Assembly: GCA_040389205.1 (NCBI GenBank)
Contig: JAZKAL010000010.1
Location: 99,697 to 163,696, forward strand
Reading direction: 5' to 3'
From: Bacteroidota bacterium
Lineage (GTDB): Bacteria > Bacteroidota > Bacteroidia > Sphingobacteriales > Sphingobacteriaceae
DNA length: 64,000 nt
Both the position numbers and the translations under genes were made by a program. Shown here one piece after another: positions 1,935 through 8,137 of this stretch; within the stretch, counting starts at the first letter, position 1; every line of letters begins with the position of its first letter. Under the pieces are notes generated by a model, which was not told where the DNA came from, searched no databases, and saw only the letters and a program-made list of their open reading frames with translations.

Positions 1935-3524
1935 ATGCCTAAAATAAGATATCTTTTGTTTGCTGCCGTATTTATGGCAGCCTTTTATGCTAATGCCCAG
2001 GCTCCTGGTGCCAATGTTGATATTAAGCATTACCGTTTCGCAATTATCCTTAACGATGCCGATAATGTGATAAAGGGCCAGGCAACCTTAACAGCTAAAT
2101 TTGTTAAACCGGCAACCATGCTTACGCTCGATCTTTATAAAAAGAACAAGGATGGCAAGGGTATGCTGGTATCGGCCATAACAGAAAACGATCGGCAGGT
2201 TAAATTTACGCAGGATAGCGACAAACTTATATTGAATGTAAAAGCCACCAAAGGCTCTATCTATAAATACACCATTACATATGCAGGCGTCCCTACCGAT
2301 GGGTTGATCATATCCACAAACCAATACAAGCACCGCACCTTTTTTGGCGACAATTGGGCTACGCGTGCACGTTACTGGCTGCCATGTGTAGATAACCCTG
2401 CCGACAAAGCCTCGGTTGAGTTTTTAGTAACCGCCCCTGCAAAATACAAGGTTGTAGCTAACGGGCTAAAAGTGGTTGAAAAACCCTTACCGCTTAACAG
2501 GAAATTTACTCATTGGAGCGAAACCGCCCAACTTCCTACCAAAGTAATGGTTATTGGCGTTGCCGAATTTGTAACAGCTAATCCTGGTAACCCCGGTGGC
2601 ACACCCGTGTATAGTTACGTATTCCCGGAAGATAGGGTGGAGGGGTTAAAGAACTATTCGGTAGCTACTAAAATTTTACCATGGTTTGTAAAGCGTATAG
2701 GCGCTTTCCCGTATAAAAAGCTGGCCAATGTACAGTCTAAAACCATATTTGGGGGGATGGAAAATGCCGGGGCGATTTTTTACTATGAGAAATCGGTAAA
2801 CGACACCAAAGGCATTGAGCCACTTATGGCCCATGAAATAGCTCACCAATGGTTTGGCGATGCCATTAGCGAAAAAAACTGGTGGCATGTTTGGTTAAGC
2901 GAAGGTTTTGCCACCTACATGACCAACCTTTATATGGAAGGAACCTACGGGGTTGATACACTTAAAAGCAGGCTGGCAACCGACCGCGATATGATATTTG
3001 CATTCGAAAAGAAGTATAGGGCGCCAATAGTGGATTCGGCTTACAAAAAGGATATGATAGGAATGCTTAACGCTAACGCTTACCAAAAAGGCGGCTGGGT
3101 GTTGCATATGCTTCGCCGCAAAATTGGCGACGGCGCTTTTTGGAAAGGTATACAGGCTTATTATAAACAATATAACGGGAGTAATGCCAATACGGATGAC
3201 CTTCGGGTTGTGATGGAAAATGCGAGCGGAACAGATCTTAAACAGTTTTTTACACAATGGCTGCGCGAGGCGGGTCACCCTCAACTAAAATTAACATGGA
3301 GTTATGATGCACAAAATAAGGCACTCACCGTGCATATAAACCAGTTACAGGATAAGCCGTATCAATTTATGTTCGAGTTTATGGTTGGTGGTAAGCTATA
3401 TAAAACGGAGGTTAGAGATGCGGTAACTAGTATTACCGTGCCGGCCGCATCGGCAACGACCGTTGTTAAAGCCGACCCTAACACAAATTTATTAGCCACT
3501 TTTGATACAATAAATAAACTTTGA
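1935..3524 (+). CDS. M1 family aminopeptidase, exported
   Basis: Signal peptide, GGMEN exopeptidase motif, HEIAHQW...E zinc motif, downstream YQKG motif. Confidence 0.92.
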   Translation: MPKIRYLLFAAVFMAAFYANAQAPGANVDIKHYRFAIILNDADNVIKGQATLTAKFVKPATMLTLDLYKKNKDGKGMLVSAITENDRQVKFTQDSDKLILNVKATKGSIYKYTITYAGVPTDGLIISTNQYKHRTFFGDNWATRARYWLPCVDNPADKASVEFLVTAPAKYKVVANGLKVVEKPLPLNRKFTHWSETAQLPTKVMVIGVAEFVTANPGNPGGTPVYSYVFPEDRVEGLKNYSVATKILPWFVKRIGAFPYKKLANVQSKTIFGGMENAGAIFYYEKSVNDTKGIEPLMAHEIAHQWFGDAISEKNWWHVWLSEGFATYMTNLYMEGTYGVDTLKSRLATDRDMIFAFEKKYRAPIVDSAYKKDMIGMLNANAYQKGGWVLHMLRRKIGDGAFWKGIQAYYKQYNGSNANTDDLRVVMENASGTDLKQFFTQWLREAGHPQLKLTWSYDAQNKALTVHINQLQDKPYQFMFEFMVGGKLYKTEVRDAVTSITVPAASATTVVKADPNTNLLATFDTINKL

Positions 3525-3746
3525 GGTTCAAATCCTATCAAACTAATTATAAAGGGACTAATTAATGTTCAAACACATTGCAATTTAGTTTCGACATTTG
3601 CAATTATGCGCTATATAATTTTGATTATTAAAAAAAATCAAAACATTATATCTTTTTTAAATGTTTTTCGTATAATTGAACTATGTAACAAACTAATAAT
3701 AATGTTACAGGAATTAACCCGATCTGTTCACTTAAATTTCAACACC

Positions 3747-4124
3747 ATGGCAAAAGCGTATCAGTCCATTTATGTAATGTTTTACAGGTGGAGCTTCAAA
3801 AATTTCGGTCAGGGCTCATTACCCCAATTTAAATCGTTGTTTAACGTTAGCTTTTTGCTGGTTGTGGTGTTAACAAACGCCATGCTGCTTACCAAACTTA
3901 TGGTAAATGCTAATTGGTTAACGATTAATATGTCGACTTACTTGGCTATATTATTTGGTGCGGTAGGCTTCCTGCTTTTAAACCATTTTATATTGTTAAA
4001 TAACCGCATGTTCAAAAAGTTAAATATGCGCCTGGCAACAATCAGCGCCCACAATAAAAACCTTTTTTCGATTGTATTATTGGTGAATGTATTGTTTGCC
4101 TGCAGCCTTTGTTTTATAAGATAA
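3747..4124 (+). CDS. Hypothetical membrane protein (about 3 TM segments); ATG at 3747 preferred to 3606
   Basis: Three hydrophobic stretches, followed by a terminator. The 5' extension of the ORF track entry is AT-rich and looks non-coding. Confidence 0.6.
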   Translation: MAKAYQSIYVMFYRWSFKNFGQGSLPQFKSLFNVSFLLVVVLTNAMLLTKLMVNANWLTINMSTYLAILFGAVGFLLLNHFILLNNRMFKKLNMRLATISAHNKNLFSIVLLVNVLFACSLCFIR

Positions 4125-4170
4125 TATCAAGGAAAAGAATAATAAAGCGTTATCTTCCAGTATTTTATTT

Positions 4171-4200
4171 AAAGCCTTAAGCCTTGCGCTTAGGGCTTTT
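4171..4200. terminator. Intrinsic terminator between convergent genes
   Basis: aaagccttaagc-cttgc-gcttagggcttt followed by a T run. Confidence 0.7.
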
Positions 4201-4644
4201 TTATGCCAAAACCGCGCAATGCTGCTTGGTAATATTCGGTATTACTACGCGCTTTTTACCAATAACTTTAACGGATAAGTTTATATCTTTTAAAAATTTC
4301 TCTTGCCTGCCGGGGGTAAGCGTTATCAACAGTTTGCCTGTTTGTGTGCCGGTGTTAACAACACTGTGCATAATGCCTTGTGGTATAAAAATATTTGCAC
4401 CCTTTTCTGCATCATAGCTTTCACCATTTGCGTAAAGCGTGAATTTACCCTCGGTAACCAGGATAACTTTATCATCATGATTGCAGACTAACGGGGGCGA
4501 GCCTGCGCCAACGCTTACTTCTTTCTCTAAGATGGTAAGGTTGCCGCCGCTGCATTCTGTACTCAGGATAACGTTCATTTGTATTCCCGGTATGTCTACA
4601 TACTCAGCCGGGTTGCGCTGTATAAAGTTTATGGTAGGTGCCAT
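4201..4644 (-). CDS. Cupin domain protein (quercetin dioxygenase-like fold, degenerate metal site)
   Basis: Cupin motif 1 (SPPLVCNHDDKVILVTEG) and motif 2 (GANIFIPQGIMHSVVN), then LLITLTPG. Confidence 0.75.
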   Translation of the reverse strand: MAPTINFIQRNPAEYVDIPGIQMNVILSTECSGGNLTILEKEVSVGAGSPPLVCNHDDKVILVTEGKFTLYANGESYDAEKGANIFIPQGIMHSVVNTGTQTGKLLITLTPGRQEKFLKDINLSVKVIGKKRVVIPNITKQHCAVLA

Positions 4645-4821
4645 TGTATTAAAGTTTGGTAATAATATGACGGAAATTTATAGCTGGGTGTTACAAATAC
4701 GCTAATAAAAAAGTTGCGTGTTTAAACAGGTAATGGACTGGCTATGAGATTGTATAACTGATTTTAATTGGAGCTGTATGAATTATAACTAATAATATGC
4801 AACTTTAATAAACCTTATTAT

Positions 4822-6498
4822 ATGGAATTAATTGATTTATTAGCAAAAGGATATTTTCCCAAGGAACTTCCGCCTCCTTTTAATACGCAATCGCTTGCAA
4901 GTAAATATAATATCATTAAAGCAAGTCTTTTTGGCGCAATTGATAAGACACCAACCAGATGTGTAAACTTTTCTTATGCAAAAATTGGGATGGTACGAAA
5001 ATCAATAAAAATACCAAACCCAATGCATCAGATTGGTCTTTGCGAAGAAATTTCTAATAACTGGTCTCAAATTGAAGCAATTTATAAGTCATCAACAATT
5101 TCTTTTAGCAGACCTAAATTGAAAGGAGATAGAGCTGCAAACTTAAGTCAATTTAGAGATTTCAGTCGTAGAACATTTTTGGCATCGTATCCTTACACAT
5201 TTGAACTTAAAACAGATATTGCAAAATACTTTCCGTCTATATATACACACAGCATTCCTTGGGCGATTCATGGCAAAAGCGTTTCCAAAGCATCAAAGTA
5301 TGATAAAAGTCTATTGGGTAATAAATTGGACGCGTGTATTCAACAAACGATGTATGGACAGACAATAGGTTTACCTATTGGTCCAGATACCTCATTAATT
5401 GTATCTGAATTAATAGGTTGTGCTATAGACGCACAGTTATCTAAGGTTATTCCTGGTATAAAGGGATATAGATACGTAGATGACATGTACTTCTTTTTTA
5501 ATAGTTATGTCGAAGCAGAAAATGGATTTTTAGAGATTCAAAAAGCACTTAAAGAGTTTGAACTTCAAGTAAATGCAGAAAAAACTGTAATTAGAAAAAT
5601 TCCAAGAGGAACAGATAATGAATGGGTTATTAAACTTAGATCTTTTAGATTTCGCAAAACAGAAGGTAAACAATACAATGATATTATAAGTTTTTTTGAT
5701 ATGGCGTTTGGATTGTCTAATCAGTTACCGAATGAATACATCTTATCTTATGCGGTTTCAAGGATAAAAAATGTGCAGCCTATCTCAGATGAAAATTGGC
5801 TGCTACTCGAAACCATGTTACTAAAAACAATGGTTGCTGAACCAGCCACCATTAAAGAAGTCTTCCGAATATTTTATTCCCATCAGTCTAAGATAAGCGT
5901 TAAAAAAATAGAGAAAGTCTTATTTAATTTTTTGGAATATCACTGCCAAAGAGGGTGTGATTTTGAGGTGTCTTGGGGGCTATGGATGGCTAAAACATTT
6001 AATATATGTATTCCAGCTAAAACGAGTCTGGTTCTTTCCAATTTTGCCGACACCATATCTATACTAATTATCTTAGATATGATGAGCGTTGGGTTAATCC
6101 AAAAAGGAGATTTGGATATTGCCAAGTGGGAGGAAAAGCTGGACAAGCAATCTCTTTTGGATGAGAATTGGTTGTTTGCTTACGAAATTGCTGCCAAAAA
6201 ATGGATTGGCAGTTCTTATGATTATATAAATGAGGTGCCTTTTTTTAAAATCTTAAAAAAGAGTAAAATATCTTTTTATAATTCAGAATTACAAATTGAG
6301 CCGATTCAATTAACTAAACTAGCAAAAGCGGAAACTACAATTCCAGAGAGAGCTCAAGGCAATCCACTTTCTGATTACCAAGACTTTAAGGCGATAGAGC
6401 AAGCTGAAATTGTTTACGACATGGGAGAAGATGAAGTTGATATTGACTTTTTTGATGACTACCCACTTGATGATGATTATTATGACGAGTTTTATTAG
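4822..6498 (+). CDS. RNA-directed DNA polymerase family protein, class 1 UG/Abi (AbiK-like) reverse transcriptase with helical C-terminal domain; probable anti-phage defence protein
   Basis: RT motifs KTDIAKYFPSIYTHSIPW (Asp132), GLPIGPDTS, RYVDD (5473-5484) and LQVNAEKT, followed by a helical region with ENWLFAYE and FFKIL. AT-rich with AGA Arg codons, unlike its neighbours. Confidence 0.9.
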   Translation: MELIDLLAKGYFPKELPPPFNTQSLASKYNIIKASLFGAIDKTPTRCVNFSYAKIGMVRKSIKIPNPMHQIGLCEEISNNWSQIEAIYKSSTISFSRPKLKGDRAANLSQFRDFSRRTFLASYPYTFELKTDIAKYFPSIYTHSIPWAIHGKSVSKASKYDKSLLGNKLDACIQQTMYGQTIGLPIGPDTSLIVSELIGCAIDAQLSKVIPGIKGYRYVDDMYFFFNSYVEAENGFLEIQKALKEFELQVNAEKTVIRKIPRGTDNEWVIKLRSFRFRKTEGKQYNDIISFFDMAFGLSNQLPNEYILSYAVSRIKNVQPISDENWLLLETMLLKTMVAEPATIKEVFRIFYSHQSKISVKKIEKVLFNFLEYHCQRGCDFEVSWGLWMAKTFNICIPAKTSLVLSNFADTISILIILDMMSVGLIQKGDLDIAKWEEKLDKQSLLDENWLFAYEIAAKKWIGSSYDYINEVPFFKILKKSKISFYNSELQIEPIQLTKLAKAETTIPERAQGNPLSDYQDFKAIEQAEIVYDMGEDEVDIDFFDDYPLDDDYYDEFY

Positions 6499-6595
6499 TA
6501 AGTACTGTTATTCAATAAATAGCCTGTTGATGCTAAGCTCAGATTTATTTTACGTCAAATAAATTCTATATCTTTCGCTTAACAAAATCTATCGC

Positions 6596-8137
6596 GTGTT
6601 AGTTAAGACCTTTGGAAGTGCGGTTTATGGTATCCAGGCTATTACCATTACAGTTGAAGTGAATATAAGCGGGGGCAAGTTGGCCTATTTTATTGTCGGC
6701 CTGCCTGATAATGCCGTACGCGAGTCGATGCAGCGGGTTGAAACCGCATTACAAACCAATGGCTACCGCATGCCAAGGCAACGCATTGTTGTAAATATGG
6801 CCCCGGCTGACATCCGCAAAGAAGGATCGGCCTACGACCTTACCATCGCTGTTGGTATTCTTACTGCATCAGGGCAAATTCAATCAGAAGAAGTAGACAA
6901 GTACCTCATCATGGGCGAGCTATCGTTAGATGGCGGCCTACAGCCTATAAAAGGCTCGTTACCCATTGCCATACAAGCCCGCAAGGAAGGCTACAAAGGA
7001 TTCATCCTGCCAAAGCAAAACAGCCGTGAAGCCGCTATTGTGGATAATCTGGAGGTTTACGGCGTAGAGAACATTAAACAGGTTGCCGACTTTTTTAATG
7101 GCACGGGAGTGCTTGAGCCCGAAGTAGTAAACACCCGCGATGAATTTTACAATAGCCTTACCAGTTACGATAGCGACTTTAGCGAAGTGCGCGGGCAGGA
7201 GAATATTAAACGTGCTTTAGAAATAGCAGCAGCCGGTGGCCATAATGTAATTTTGATTGGTCCGCCGGGTGCCGGTAAAACCATGCTTGCACGCAGGCTG
7301 CCGTCTATATTGCCTCCATTAAGTTTGCACGAATCGTTAGAAACTACGAAAATTCATTCAGTAGCAGGGAAGCTTTCTGCCGCTGATGCATTGGTAACAA
7401 CAAGGCCTTTCCGGTCGCCGCATCATACCATATCCGATGTTGCTTTAGTTGGTGGCGGCAGTAACCCACAGCCGGGCGAGATCTCTTTGGCACATAACGG
7501 TGTTTTATTTTTAGACGAGCTGCCCGAGTTTAAACGCAGCGCGCTTGAAGTGATGCGCCAACCCCTGGAAGAGCGCAAGGTTACCATATCGCGCGCGAAA
7601 TTTACGGTTGATTATCCAAGTAGCTTTATGCTGGTTGCCAGCATGAACCCCTGCCCTTGCGGCTACTACAACCATCCCGAAAAGGAATGCATTTGCCCGC
7701 CGGGCACGGTTCAGAAATATTTAAGCAAGATCTCGGGACCTTTGTTAGATCGTATAGACCTGCACGTAGAGGTTACACCGGTTAATTTTAGTGAGCTGTC
7801 ATCAGACAGGCTGGCCGAGAAAAGTGAGTTGATCCGCGACCGGGTGATCAAAGCCCGCGAAGTACAGATAGAACGTTTTGGAGCAAGGCCAGATCTGCAT
7901 GCTAACGCCCAGATGAGCCCGCAAATGGTACGCGATCTTTGTAAGATAACAGCAGCCGGGCAAACCCTGTTAAAGAAAGCCATGGAGAAGCTCGGCCTTT
8001 CGGCCCGTGCGTACGACCGCATATTGAAAGTTGCCCGCACCATTGCCGACCTTGCTGGAAGTGAAGAAATCCTATTAGAACACCTTGCCGAGGCCATCCA
8101 CTTCCGCAGCCTCGATCGTGAAGGCTGGGCTGGTTAG
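6596..8137 (+). CDS. comM: YifB/ComM family Mg-chelatase-like AAA+ ATPase
   Basis: GTG start, [30 protein letters not shown] Walker [20 protein letters not shown] motif, LSARAYDR. Frame is intact. Confidence 0.93.

What the first reader, a model, noticed from the sequence alone, without database searches (positions are those of the whole stretch)
4822..6498. Stand-alone AbiK-like (class 1 UG/Abi) reverse transcriptase: candidate anti-phage DNA-synthesis system
Seen: 558-aa ORF with the RT catalytic triad (Asp132 in KTDIAKYF; Asp220/221 in YVDD), the IYTHSIPW and GLPIGP motifs, an N-terminal GYFPKELPPPF motif, and a ~250-aa helical C-terminal region (EVSWGLW, ENWLFAYE, FFKIL). Established: IYTHSIPW plus a helical-repeat C domain marks class 1 UG/Abi RTs such as lactococcal AbiK and AbiP2, which form oligomers and make protein-primed, template-independent ssDNA, and related DRT systems. 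Inference: this is a single-gene defence RT from a Bacteroidota lineage that may not be characterised. There is no partner ORF, maturase domain, nitrilase or effector next to it. I cannot assign the UG subgroup by eye.
Basis: partly seen in the sequence, partly recalled or inferred. Interest (0 to 1): 0.85.

Follow-up and report, generated by a model that had tools for sequence, protein, structure and literature searches.

The report
DRT6-type antiphage reverse transcriptase gene
This gene encodes a single-protein antiphage reverse transcriptase of the DRT6 (UG12) family, whose structure is solved and whose biochemistry is partly known, so it is a new Bacteroidota member of a known defence system and not a new kind of system.

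Summary
Its class-level call (stand-alone class 1 UG/Abi RT, AbiK-like) is correct, and the subgroup can be assigned: UG12 = DRT6.

- **Subgroup evidence.** The Drt6/UG12 HMM matches over the full length (E 4.5e-169). The AlphaFold model superposes on the hexameric DRT6 cryo-EM structure 9wy8 (TM 0.83/0.93, rmsd 1.9 A). DRT4, AbiK and Abi-P2 fit less well, and retron, group II intron and DGR RTs fit far worse.
- **Known biology.** DRT6 protects E. coli against T5 by abortive infection. It makes template-independent DNA covalently attached to the protein, and T5 ORF55 triggers it.
- **Locus.** The gene is a 1.8-kb low-GC single-gene insertion upstream of comM, absent from same-genus relatives. 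It has no partner gene and no Rfam-detectable ncRNA.
- **Modest additions.** The residues matching DRT4's RNase His/Asp pair (H143, D170) are invariant in 121/121 family members. DRT4's priming Tyr is not conserved. The disordered C-terminal tail ends in an aromatic residue across most of the family, and in one clade it ends in the host SSB tip DDLPF.

Verdict: new member of a known kind. Interest is low to moderate.

The parts
4822..6498 (+). DRT6/UG12-family reverse transcriptase gene (558 aa plus stop)
   Evidence: ORF. PADLOC Drt6 PDLC03748 E 4.5e-169 over residues 2-510. PDB 9wy8 E 4e-80 over residues 3-555. Fold TM 0.83/0.93 to 9wy8.
4822..5646 (+). N-terminal extension plus RT fingers/palm (residues 1-275). 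Includes the GYFPKELPPPF motif (4849-4881), motif A D132 (5215-5217), IYTHSIPW with H143 (5248-5250), D170 (5329-5331), GLPIGP, and YVDD 218-221 (5473-5484).
   Evidence: Motif positions. D132, H143, D170 and D220 are invariant in 121/121 family rows, and D221 in 120/121. RVT_1 covers residues 129-258.
5662..6291 (+). C-terminal alpha-helical repeat (alphaRep) domain, residues ~281-490. This domain defines class 1 UG/Abi RTs.
   Evidence: The AlphaFold2 model shows a run of helices from 281 to 480 at pLDDT above 90. It superposes on the DRT6, DRT4 and AbiK structures over ~500 columns. Invariant residues: E382, W385, W388, W450, Y454, F485, Y486.
6322..6495 (+). Disordered, strongly acidic, Tyr/Phe-rich C-terminal tail (residues 501-558), ending ...DDYPLDDDYYDEFY
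   Evidence: pLDDT below 50 for residues 501-558. 19 D/E in 57 residues. 9wy8 also has an acidic tail that aligns here. A terminal aromatic residue is found in 74/120 family members against 28/337 background ORFs.
4740..6552 (.). Strain-specific ~1.8-kb low-GC cassette that carries only the RT, with ~80 nt upstream and ~55 nt downstream
   Evidence: blastn and pairwise alignment against the closest same-genus genome G008. Homology runs through the cupin and its upstream region to about 4740 and resumes at about 6553. RT GC is 0.335 against 0.435 for the window. No flanking direct or inverted repeats.
4201..4644 (-). Cupin_2 gene, a variable neighbour and not part of the system
   Evidence: Pfam Cupin_2 E 2.9e-09. 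Present next to comM without the RT in G008 (55% identity) and absent in G015.
3606..4124 (+). Small low-GC membrane-like ORF (orf172), a conserved core gene and not a partner
   Evidence: 84-92% identical copies sit at the same position in G015 and G008, which lack the RT. No family hits.
6596..8137 (+). comM/yifB-like Mg-chelatase-family ATPase, the conserved downstream flank of the insertion site
   Evidence: Pfam Mg_chelatase, ChlI and Mg_chelatase_C. 83-96% identical in same-genus genomes. Its 43-nt upstream region is conserved right up to the insertion boundary.

Best explanation
The ORF encodes a functional DRT6 (UG12) defence-associated reverse transcriptase, a one-gene abortive-infection system that arrived by horizontal transfer as a 1.8-kb cassette upstream of comM.

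Proposed mechanism, by homology to the studied Sphingopyxis DRT6 and to DRT4:
1. The protein assembles into a hexamer (dimer of trimers).
2. Without any RNA template or partner, each protomer uses D132/D220/D221 to polymerise dNTPs onto a hydroxyl side chain of the protein itself, making short covalently attached random ssDNA.
3. In uninfected cells, host 3'-5' exonucleases keep this ssDNA short.
4. On infection, a phage SSB-like DNA-binding protein binds and protects or displaces the ssDNA. The disordered acidic C-terminal tail probably takes part in sensing that protein.
5. The cell is then arrested, either by ssDNA accumulation or, as I favour at about 55%, by switching on an intrinsic RNase site formed by H143 and D170 at the trimer-trimer interface, as shown for DRT4.

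What is shown here: family membership, fold, intact catalytic residues, stand-alone architecture, and the accessory, horizontally acquired status of the gene. Steps 1-4 are inferred from published DRT6 work. The RNase part of step 5 and the tail's role are extrapolated from DRT4.
For: **HMMs.** PADLOC Drt6 (UG12) matches at 4.5e-169 over the full length, and the paired 'Drt4' models PDLC02177 and PDLC02179 at 4.7e-170 and 4.5e-158. As a control, the validated DRT6 sequence hits the same three models best, whereas the validated DRT4 hits PDLC02180, PDLC03752 and PDLC02178.

**Sequence against the PDB.** 9wy8 matches at 4e-80 over residues 3-555, DRT4 at 5e-29 and AbiK at 3e-16.

**Fold.** The model has pLDDT 88.9. 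9wy8, 'hexameric DRT6', gives TM 0.83/0.93 and rmsd 1.9 A. DRT4 gives ~0.75, AbiK 0.64 and Abi-P2 0.58. Group II intron, retron and DGR RTs give 0.31-0.37.

**Tree.** The validated DRT6 nests inside the sampled family. The window RT lies in a Bacteroidota-dominated subclade with SH-aLRT 97. DRT4 is a long outgroup branch.

**Residues.** D132, D220, H143 and D170 are invariant in 121/121 family rows.

**Stand-alone architecture.** No neighbour family recurs in more than 10/81 loci, and the commonest one is a tyrosine integrase. There is no Rfam hit.

**Accessory, transferred gene.** The gene is absent from 22 of 24 same-genus genomes. The empty site is visible in G008 and G015. GC is 0.335 against 0.435.

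**Defence context.** The closest homolog (64% identity) lies between Shedu (SduA_C) and TIR genes.

**Literature.** UG12/DRT6 protects against T5 and ZL-19, and the RT active site is required (PMC9226505). It acts by abortive infection, is an oligomer, makes template-independent DNA covalently attached to the protein, is triggered by T5 ORF55 and is toxic in an sbcB knockout (PMC12783706). DRT4 has an HD RNase site (H160/D192) and a C-terminal domain required for activation by phage SSB (bioRxiv 10.64898/2026.10.21.760695 and 10.64898/2026.10.27.754916).
Against:
- It is only 33% identical to the one studied DRT6, so the trigger, product and phage range may differ.
- RNase activity has been shown only for DRT4. 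H143 lies in the IYTHSIPW motif, which may be conserved for polymerase or structural reasons.
- The priming residue is unknown here. DRT4's Y125 aligns to a variable column, L108 in the window protein.
- Oligomeric state could not be modelled with the tools available.
- The window locus is flanked by housekeeping genes, not a defence island.
- No recognisable promoter or terminator was found.
Confidence: 0.85

Rival explanations
1. It is a DRT4 (UG15) system, not DRT6. PADLOC's best-scoring model is named Drt4, so an automatic pipeline would call it DRT4.
For: PDLC02177 'Drt4' is nominally the top hit at 4.7e-170. NCBIfam's best hit is Drt4 NF041749. The architecture and fold are the same as DRT4, with TM ~0.75.
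Against: The NCBIfam Drt4 score of 249.9 bits is far below the equivalog cut-off of 450. The Mestre UG15 model PDLC03752 reaches only 3.4e-84, against 4.5e-169 for UG12. The control shows that PDLC02177 and PDLC02179 are effectively UG12-clade models, because the validated DRT6 hits them and the validated DRT4 prefers PDLC02180, PDLC03752 and PDLC02178. PDB sequence and fold hits rank DRT6 well above DRT4. In the tree, DRT4 is a long outgroup. DRT4's priming Tyr125 is not conserved.
Confidence: 0.03
2. It is a DRT6-family gene that no longer works in defence: a silent, recently acquired passenger, or a gene co-opted for another role such as interplay with the adjacent comM.
For: The cassette is isolated among housekeeping genes, with no integrase and no other defence gene nearby. 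No promoter or terminator consensus was detected. There is no expression evidence. It lies directly upstream of, and co-oriented with, comM.
Against: The frame is full length and uninterrupted, and all 40-odd family-invariant residues are intact, including the catalytic Asp triad. The model is confident and superposes on 9wy8 at 1.9 A. Family members occur in many unrelated contexts, so no link to comM is conserved. The comM promoter-proximal 43 nt are retained.
Confidence: 0.08
3. It is the RT of a retron, group II intron or diversity-generating retroelement, or a class 2 DRT that needs a neighbouring ncRNA template.
For: Weak RT-domain matches to group II intron (TIGR04416, 38.7 bits) and retron St85 (37.9 bits) models. 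There are ~180 nt of non-coding DNA upstream of the ORF.
Against: Those scores are far below their cut-offs of 300 and 235 bits. Fold TM to group II, retron and DGR RTs is only 0.31-0.37, against 0.83 for DRT6. There is no Rfam match to any intron, retron or other RNA family in 3400-6800 at E<=1. There is no maturase or endonuclease domain, and no template/variable repeat pair. Roughly the first 95 nt of the upstream region are shared with relatives that lack the RT.
Confidence: 0.01

Closest known systems
DRT6 (UG12) from Sphingopyxis sp., PHR10625.1; cryo-EM structure 9wy8 (Wang et al. 2025 BBRC; Mestre et al. 2022, PMC9226505; Wang et al. 2026, PMC12783706)
   Same: Same family by HMM, PDB sequence search, fold (TM 0.83/0.93, rmsd 1.9 A) and tree. 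Same single-gene architecture of RT plus alphaRep plus an acidic disordered tail. Same YVDD catalytic motif: published mutant D223A/D224A, window D220/D221. The H and D of IYTH..W and ..LD.. are conserved.
   Different: Only 33% identical. It belongs to a different subclade (Bacteroidota-dominated against Pseudomonadota). Tail chemistry differs: the window protein ends in the Tyr/Phe-rich ...DDDYYDEFY, whereas the aligned part of 9wy8 ends in a poly-Asp run. The host is a Bacteroidota bacterium, whose phages and exonucleases differ from the E. coli test system. This ortholog has not been tested.
DRT4 (UG15) from E. coli (PDB 9vdo, 9l9s, 21ou; PMC12783706; bioRxiv 10.64898/2026.10.21.760695 and 10.64898/2026.10.27.754916)
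   Same: Same domain organisation and fold (TM ~0.75). Single-gene system. Template-independent, protein-primed ssDNA synthesis. The phage SSB-type trigger is shared with DRT6. The RNase His/Asp pair H160/D192 aligns with window H143/D170, which are invariant in the DRT6 family. The flexible C-terminal segment is required for function.
   Different: About 23-27% identity. The NCBIfam Drt4 equivalog cut-off is not met. The priming Tyr125 is not conserved, since the column is variable and holds L108 here. RNase activity and purine preference have been shown only for DRT4.
AbiK (Lactococcus lactis; PDB 7r06/7r07) and Abi-P2 (7r08)
   Same: Class 1 UG/Abi RTs with an RT plus alphaRep architecture. 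[quoted passage not shown] Oligomeric: AbiK is a hexamer and Abi-P2 a trimer. Abortive-infection phenotype.
   Different: Much more distant: PADLOC AbiK 8e-49, fold TM 0.64 and 0.58, 18-20% identity. AbiK primes on an N-terminal Tyr44 and is plasmid-borne in lactococci. Abi-P2 is encoded on P2-like prophages.

Membership tests
DRT6 / UG12 (class 1 UG/Abi RT) | Full-length match to the UG12 profile, better than to the profiles of other UG/Abi groups | tested here: met
   PDLC03748 Drt6 matches at 4.5e-169, covering residues 2-510 of 558 and profile positions 3-497 of 511. UG15 PDLC03752 reaches 3.4e-84, UG30 1.3e-71 and AbiK 8e-49. The control with validated DRT6 and DRT4 sequences shows that the equally high 'Drt4' PDLC02177 and PDLC02179 models are UG12-clade models.
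DRT6 / UG12 (class 1 UG/Abi RT) | Closest solved structure and closest sequence in the PDB is DRT6 | tested here: met
   9wy8 matches at E 4e-80 by sequence. Foldseek rank 1, TM 0.83/0.93, rmsd 1.9 A.
DRT6 / UG12 (class 1 UG/Abi RT) | Phylogenetic placement with the validated DRT6 and apart from DRT4 | tested here: met
   ML tree of 122 sequences. The validated DRT6 nests within the ingroup, the window RT lies in a starred subclade, and DRT4 sits on a 3.1-substitution branch. Only one outgroup was used, and no other UG groups were included.
DRT6 / UG12 (class 1 UG/Abi RT) | Intact RT catalytic residues (motif A Asp and YxDD) | tested here: met
   D132 and YVDD 218-221 are present. These residues are invariant across the family.
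DRT6 / UG12 (class 1 UG/Abi RT) | C-terminal alpha-helical repeat (alphaRep) domain fused to the RT | tested here: met
   The model shows helices from 281 to 480 at pLDDT above 90. The structural alignment to 9wy8 spans 502 columns.
DRT6 / UG12 (class 1 UG/Abi RT) | Stand-alone system with no ncRNA and no partner gene | tested here: met
   Only the RT is strain-specific. No partner recurs across 81 loci. No Rfam match. An undescribed ncRNA cannot be formally excluded.
DRT6 / UG12 (class 1 UG/Abi RT) | Homo-hexameric (dimer-of-trimers) assembly | not testable with these tools
   Only single-chain prediction was available. The feature is inferred from 9wy8 (6 chains).
DRT6 / UG12 (class 1 UG/Abi RT) | Template-independent, protein-primed DNA synthesis with a covalent protein-DNA product | not testable with these tools
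   Shown for Sphingopyxis DRT6 (PMC12783706). The priming residue of this protein was not identified.
DRT6 / UG12 (class 1 UG/Abi RT) | RT-dependent anti-phage (abortive infection) phenotype | not testable with these tools
   Shown for Sphingopyxis DRT6 against T5 and ZL-19 (PMC9226505, PMC12783706). Indirect support here comes from the patchy distribution and from the closest homolog lying in a Shedu/TIR island.
DRT4 / UG15 | NCBIfam NF041749 Drt4 equivalog score at or above the curated cut-off | tested here: not met
   249.9 bits against a cut-off of 450.
DRT4 / UG15 | Priming tyrosine equivalent to Tyr125 | tested here: not met
   DRT4 Y125 aligns to window L108. The column is variable (K/I/P/A) across the DRT6 family.
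DRT4 / UG15 | RNase HD pair (H160/D192) | tested here: met
   These residues align to H143 and D170, invariant in 121/121 family rows. This is residue conservation only; activity was not tested.
AbiK | Best match to AbiK profiles or structure | tested here: not met
   AbiK models reach 8e-49 and 4e-46, against ~1e-170 for the UG12 models. Fold TM is 0.64 with rmsd ~6.9 A.
Retron / group II intron / DGR RTs | Family-specific RT profile above cut-off and an associated structured RNA (msr/msd, intron RNA, TR/VR) | tested here: not met
   TIGR04416 scores 38.7 against 300 bits, and retron St85 37.9 against 235 bits. No Rfam hit. No repeat pair. Fold TM is 0.31-0.37.

The most novel reading that the evidence does not exclude
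DRT6-family enzymes, this one included, may carry two functional elements not yet described for DRT6.

1. An intrinsic RNase effector site formed by the invariant His (H143, inside IYTHSIPW) and Asp (D170), as in DRT4.
2. A disordered C-terminal tail whose aromatic tip mimics an SSB C-terminal tail. One Sphingobacteriaceae-rich clade ends in exactly the host SSB tip DDLPF, and the window protein ends in the acidic ...DDDYYDEFY. Such a tail could recruit SSB-interacting host exonucleases that keep the self-made ssDNA trimmed, or it could act as bait for the OB fold of phage SSBs.

The priming residue must also differ from DRT4's Tyr125.
Probability: 0.3. Interest if true: 0.55.

Novelty: new member of a known kind. 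Interest (0 to 1): 0.25.

Why it matters
As an annotation, this turns a 'hypothetical RNA-directed DNA polymerase' in a Bacteroidota genome into a confidently typed DRT6 defence gene, and it shows a clean single-gene insertion with its empty sites. It also flags a practical pitfall: two PADLOC models named 'Drt4' behave as UG12/DRT6 models, so pipelines may mislabel this clade.

For the field, the family-wide comparison gives three cheap, testable predictions about DRT6, whose effector step the literature still describes as unresolved:
- the DRT4 RNase His/Asp pair is invariant in DRT6;
- the priming residue is not the DRT4 tyrosine;
- the hypervariable tail keeps an aromatic C-terminal tip, which in one clade is identical to the host SSB tip.

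None of this changes the category. It is a known kind of system.

Tried and rejected
- **Papers not held.** The DRT6 structure paper (BBRC 2025, doi 10.1016/j.bbrc.2025.152955) is not in the library. The Science 2026 DRT4 RNase paper was not found either. The DRT6 priming residue and any published comment on its tail could therefore not be checked.
- **Mobility signatures.** I looked for target-site duplications or terminal inverted repeats around the cassette and found only short chance-level repeats.
- **Regulatory signals.** Sigma-70-type promoter and terminator scans were at shuffle level. The Bacteroidota -33/-7 consensus has no match near the RT.
- **ncRNA.** An Rfam scan of 3400-6800 at E<=1 found nothing.
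- **orf172 as a partner.** Considered because it is also low-GC, and rejected because it is conserved at the same site in relatives that lack the RT.
- **The cupin as a partner.** Rejected because it occurs without the RT in G008 and is absent in G015.
- **A C-terminal Tyr as the priming hydroxyl.** Unlikely as a family rule, because 21 of 120 members end in Phe and 3 in Trp.
- **Phage carriage.** Only distant Abi-P2-type RT domains turn up on P2-like and Listeria phages.
- **Failed call.** One call failed on strand orientation and was repeated correctly.
Full report
**1. Observation**

The ORF is real. The ORF listing gives 4822..6498 on the + strand, 558 aa, starting at ATG. A script confirmed every motif at the stated residue numbers: D132 in KTDIAKYF, IYTHSIPW 140-147, GLPIGP 183-188, YVDD 218-221, and the N-terminal GYFPKELPPPF 10-20. 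It also confirmed the C-terminal EVSWGLW, ENWLFAYE and FFKIL motifs. Pfam RVT_1 matches above its gathering score. The gene has a GC fraction of 0.335, against 0.435 for the window.

**2. What it is**

PADLOC gives near-full-length matches at about E 1e-170 to Drt6 (PDLC03748, the UG12 model) and to two models named Drt4 (PDLC02177, PDLC02179). The UG15/DRT4 model PDLC03752 reaches only 3.4e-84, and the AbiK models about 1e-48. NCBIfam's Drt4 equivalog scores 249.9 bits, well under its 450-bit cut-off.

To resolve the Drt4/Drt6 naming clash, I scored the two experimentally studied proteins against the same library, using their sequences as printed. The validated DRT6 hits PDLC02179, PDLC03748 and PDLC02177 best. 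The validated DRT4 hits PDLC02180, PDLC03752 and PDLC02178 best. The window protein follows the DRT6 pattern.

The PDB sequence search agrees. 9wy8 matches at 4e-80 over residues 3-555, including the acidic tail. DRT4/UG15 entries match at about 5e-29, and AbiK at about 3e-16.

An AlphaFold2 model built on a 45-sequence alignment is confident: mean pLDDT 88.9 and pTM 0.86, with only residues 501-558 disordered. Foldseek against the PDB ranks the hits as follows:

| Structure | TM (query-normalised) |
|---|---|
| 9wy8, 'Cryo-EM structure of the hexameric DRT6' | 0.83 (0.93 target-normalised), rmsd 1.9 A |
| DRT4/UG15 | ~0.75 |
| AbiK | 0.64 |
| Abi-P2 | 0.58 |
| AbiA | ~0.4 |
| Group II intron, retron and DGR RTs | 0.31-0.37 |

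A maximum-likelihood tree of 122 sequences, rooted on DRT4, places the validated DRT6 inside the sampled family, in a Pseudomonadota clade. The window protein lies in a well-supported Bacteroidota-dominated subclade. So the protein is a UG12/DRT6-family class 1 UG/Abi RT.

**3. Context**

The gene order is ffh(-), M1 peptidase(+), orf172(+), cupin(-), RT(+), comM/yifB(+), efp(-), then lpx genes.

The RT is single-copy in its 4.6-Mb genome. Of the 24 other same-genus genomes, 22 have no homolog. Two have DRT6-family RTs that are only 34% identical and sit at other loci, which indicates independent acquisitions.

Synteny comparison shows M1pep-orf172-comM in G015 and M1pep-orf172-cupin-comM in G008, both without the RT. 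At nucleotide level, homology to G008 stops at about 4740 and resumes at about 6553, which is 43 nt before comM. The strain-specific segment is therefore a ~1.8-kb cassette holding only the RT. It has no flanking repeats, integrase or transposase, no Rfam RNA, and no promoter or terminator signal above shuffle level.

orf172 is also low-GC, but it is a conserved core gene. The cupin is a separately variable gene.

**4. The family**

More than 1,800 proteins match at E<=1e-10, and at least 524 species-representative genomes encode a relative. These span Bacteroidota, Cyanobacteriota, Bacillota, Acidobacteriota, Pseudomonadota, Chloroflexota and several methanogenic or other archaea.

Clustering about 500 neighbouring ORFs from 81 loci found no partner family. 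The most frequent neighbour, in 10 of 81 loci, is a tyrosine integrase in varying position and orientation. The closest homolog (64% identity) lies between a Shedu-type SduA_C gene and a TIR gene, next to an integrase remnant, which is a typical defence island. No close relative is on a sequenced phage, and a few are on Bacillus megaplasmids.

**5. Mechanism**

Published work covers the following.
- UG12/DRT6 protects E. coli moderately against T5 and ZL-19, and the RT active site is required (PMC9226505).
- Sphingopyxis DRT6 acts by abortive infection, is oligomeric, and makes template-independent DNA covalently attached to the protein. It is activated by the T5 DNA-binding protein ORF55 and is toxic without exonuclease SbcB (PMC12783706).
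- DRT6 forms hexamers (9wy8; bioRxiv 10.64898/2026.04.29.721553). Reviews still describe its product and effector step as unresolved (PMC13213688, PMC13314766).
- For DRT4, recent work adds a dGTP- and SSB-activated RNase site (H160/D192) and a flexible C-terminal domain that binds phage SSB and is required for activation (bioRxiv 10.64898/2026.10.21.760695 and 10.64898/2026.10.27.754916).

In my 122-row alignment, the RT aspartates D132 and D220 are invariant in 121/121 family rows, and D221 in 120/121. The residues matching the DRT4 RNase pair, H143 and D170, are also invariant in 121/121. The column matching DRT4's priming Tyr125 is variable and holds L108 in the window protein.

I therefore propose the DRT6 mechanism set out under Best explanation. 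The RNase step is an inference of about 55% probability, and the priming residue is undetermined.

**6. The tail**

The last ~58 residues are disordered and strongly acidic, with 19 D/E in 57 residues.

Across 120 non-identical family members the tail sequence is hypervariable. Even so, the very last residue is aromatic in 74 of them (Tyr 50, Phe 21, Trp 3), against 28 of 337 neighbouring ORFs. After de-replication, 55 of 88 distinct tail-sequence clusters keep the feature. Most exceptions have an aromatic residue within the last four positions.

Seven members, mostly Sphingobacteriaceae, end in ...DDLPF. All four host SSB paralogs that I read also end in DDLPF. This suggests that the tail mimics an SSB C-terminal tail. 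The idea fits DRT4's dependence on its C-terminal domain and DRT6's sensitivity to loss of SbcB, but it is a hypothesis only. A first-stage note (e1-5240099) had independently flagged the tail of this protein.

**7. Verdict**

It is a new, divergent (33% identity) Bacteroidota member of a known, structurally solved defence family.

Interest is low to moderate. The family-wide predictions (RNase pair, different priming residue, aromatic or SSB-like tail tip) are the only parts that go beyond annotation.

Noticed in passing
G003:C1:2245802-2246290 and 2361227-2362279; G011:C51:7147-8241 and C34:41742-42236: In two same-genus genomes the comM/yifB gene is split into an N-terminal and a C-terminal piece. 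In G003 the pieces lie ~115 kb apart on one contig, as if a large island had inserted into comM. Together with the RT and cupin variability just upstream, this makes the comM region a hotspot for insertions in this genus.
   Followed up: no
window 4201-4644 (-): The cupin gene next to the RT is itself variable. It is only 55% identical in the closest relative G008 and absent in G015, where orf172 and comM are 176 nt apart.
   Followed up: partly
window 3606-4124 (+): A low-GC (0.32) ORF encoding a small membrane-like protein has no Pfam, NCBIfam or PADLOC hit, yet it is conserved at 63-92% identity at this position in several same-genus genomes. Its true start is probably internal, because relatives align from about residue 35-45 onward.
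   Followed up: partly
PADLOC-DB models PDLC02177 and PDLC02179: Two PADLOC models named 'Drt4' score highest on the experimentally validated DRT6 and on UG12-family proteins, not on validated DRT4. Automated annotation may therefore label DRT6-clade genes as DRT4.
   Followed up: yes
G000:C2:23193-23501, C8:126915-127199, C23:16997-17248, C9:297858-298145, C9:377722-378024: The genome encodes five SSB-family (PF00436) genes. All four that I read end in the canonical ...DDLPF tip. Several are probably carried on mobile elements.
   Followed up: no
L002 (G004:C20:230715-232202) and L003 (G020:C2:328247-329767): Two other species of the genus carry DRT6-family RTs that are only 34% identical to the window protein and lie at unrelated loci. 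This implies repeated independent acquisition of DRT6 in the genus.
   Followed up: partly
L111 5151-6425 (-), 9861-12778 (-), 12908-13309 (-): The closest homolog of the RT (P0002, 64% identity) lies in a defence island with a Shedu-type SduA_C protein, a TIR_2 protein paired with an unannotated 506-aa protein, and an integrase arm-binding fragment.
   Followed up: no
L034, L039, L043, L044, L054, L071: DRT6-family RTs at 36-40% identity occur in methanogenic and other archaea: Methanolinea, Methanotrichaceae, Methanobacterium, Methanoregulaceae, Methanomicrobiales and Bathyarchaeia. They are interleaved with bacterial sequences in the tree, which indicates inter-domain transfer of this defence gene.
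   Followed up: no
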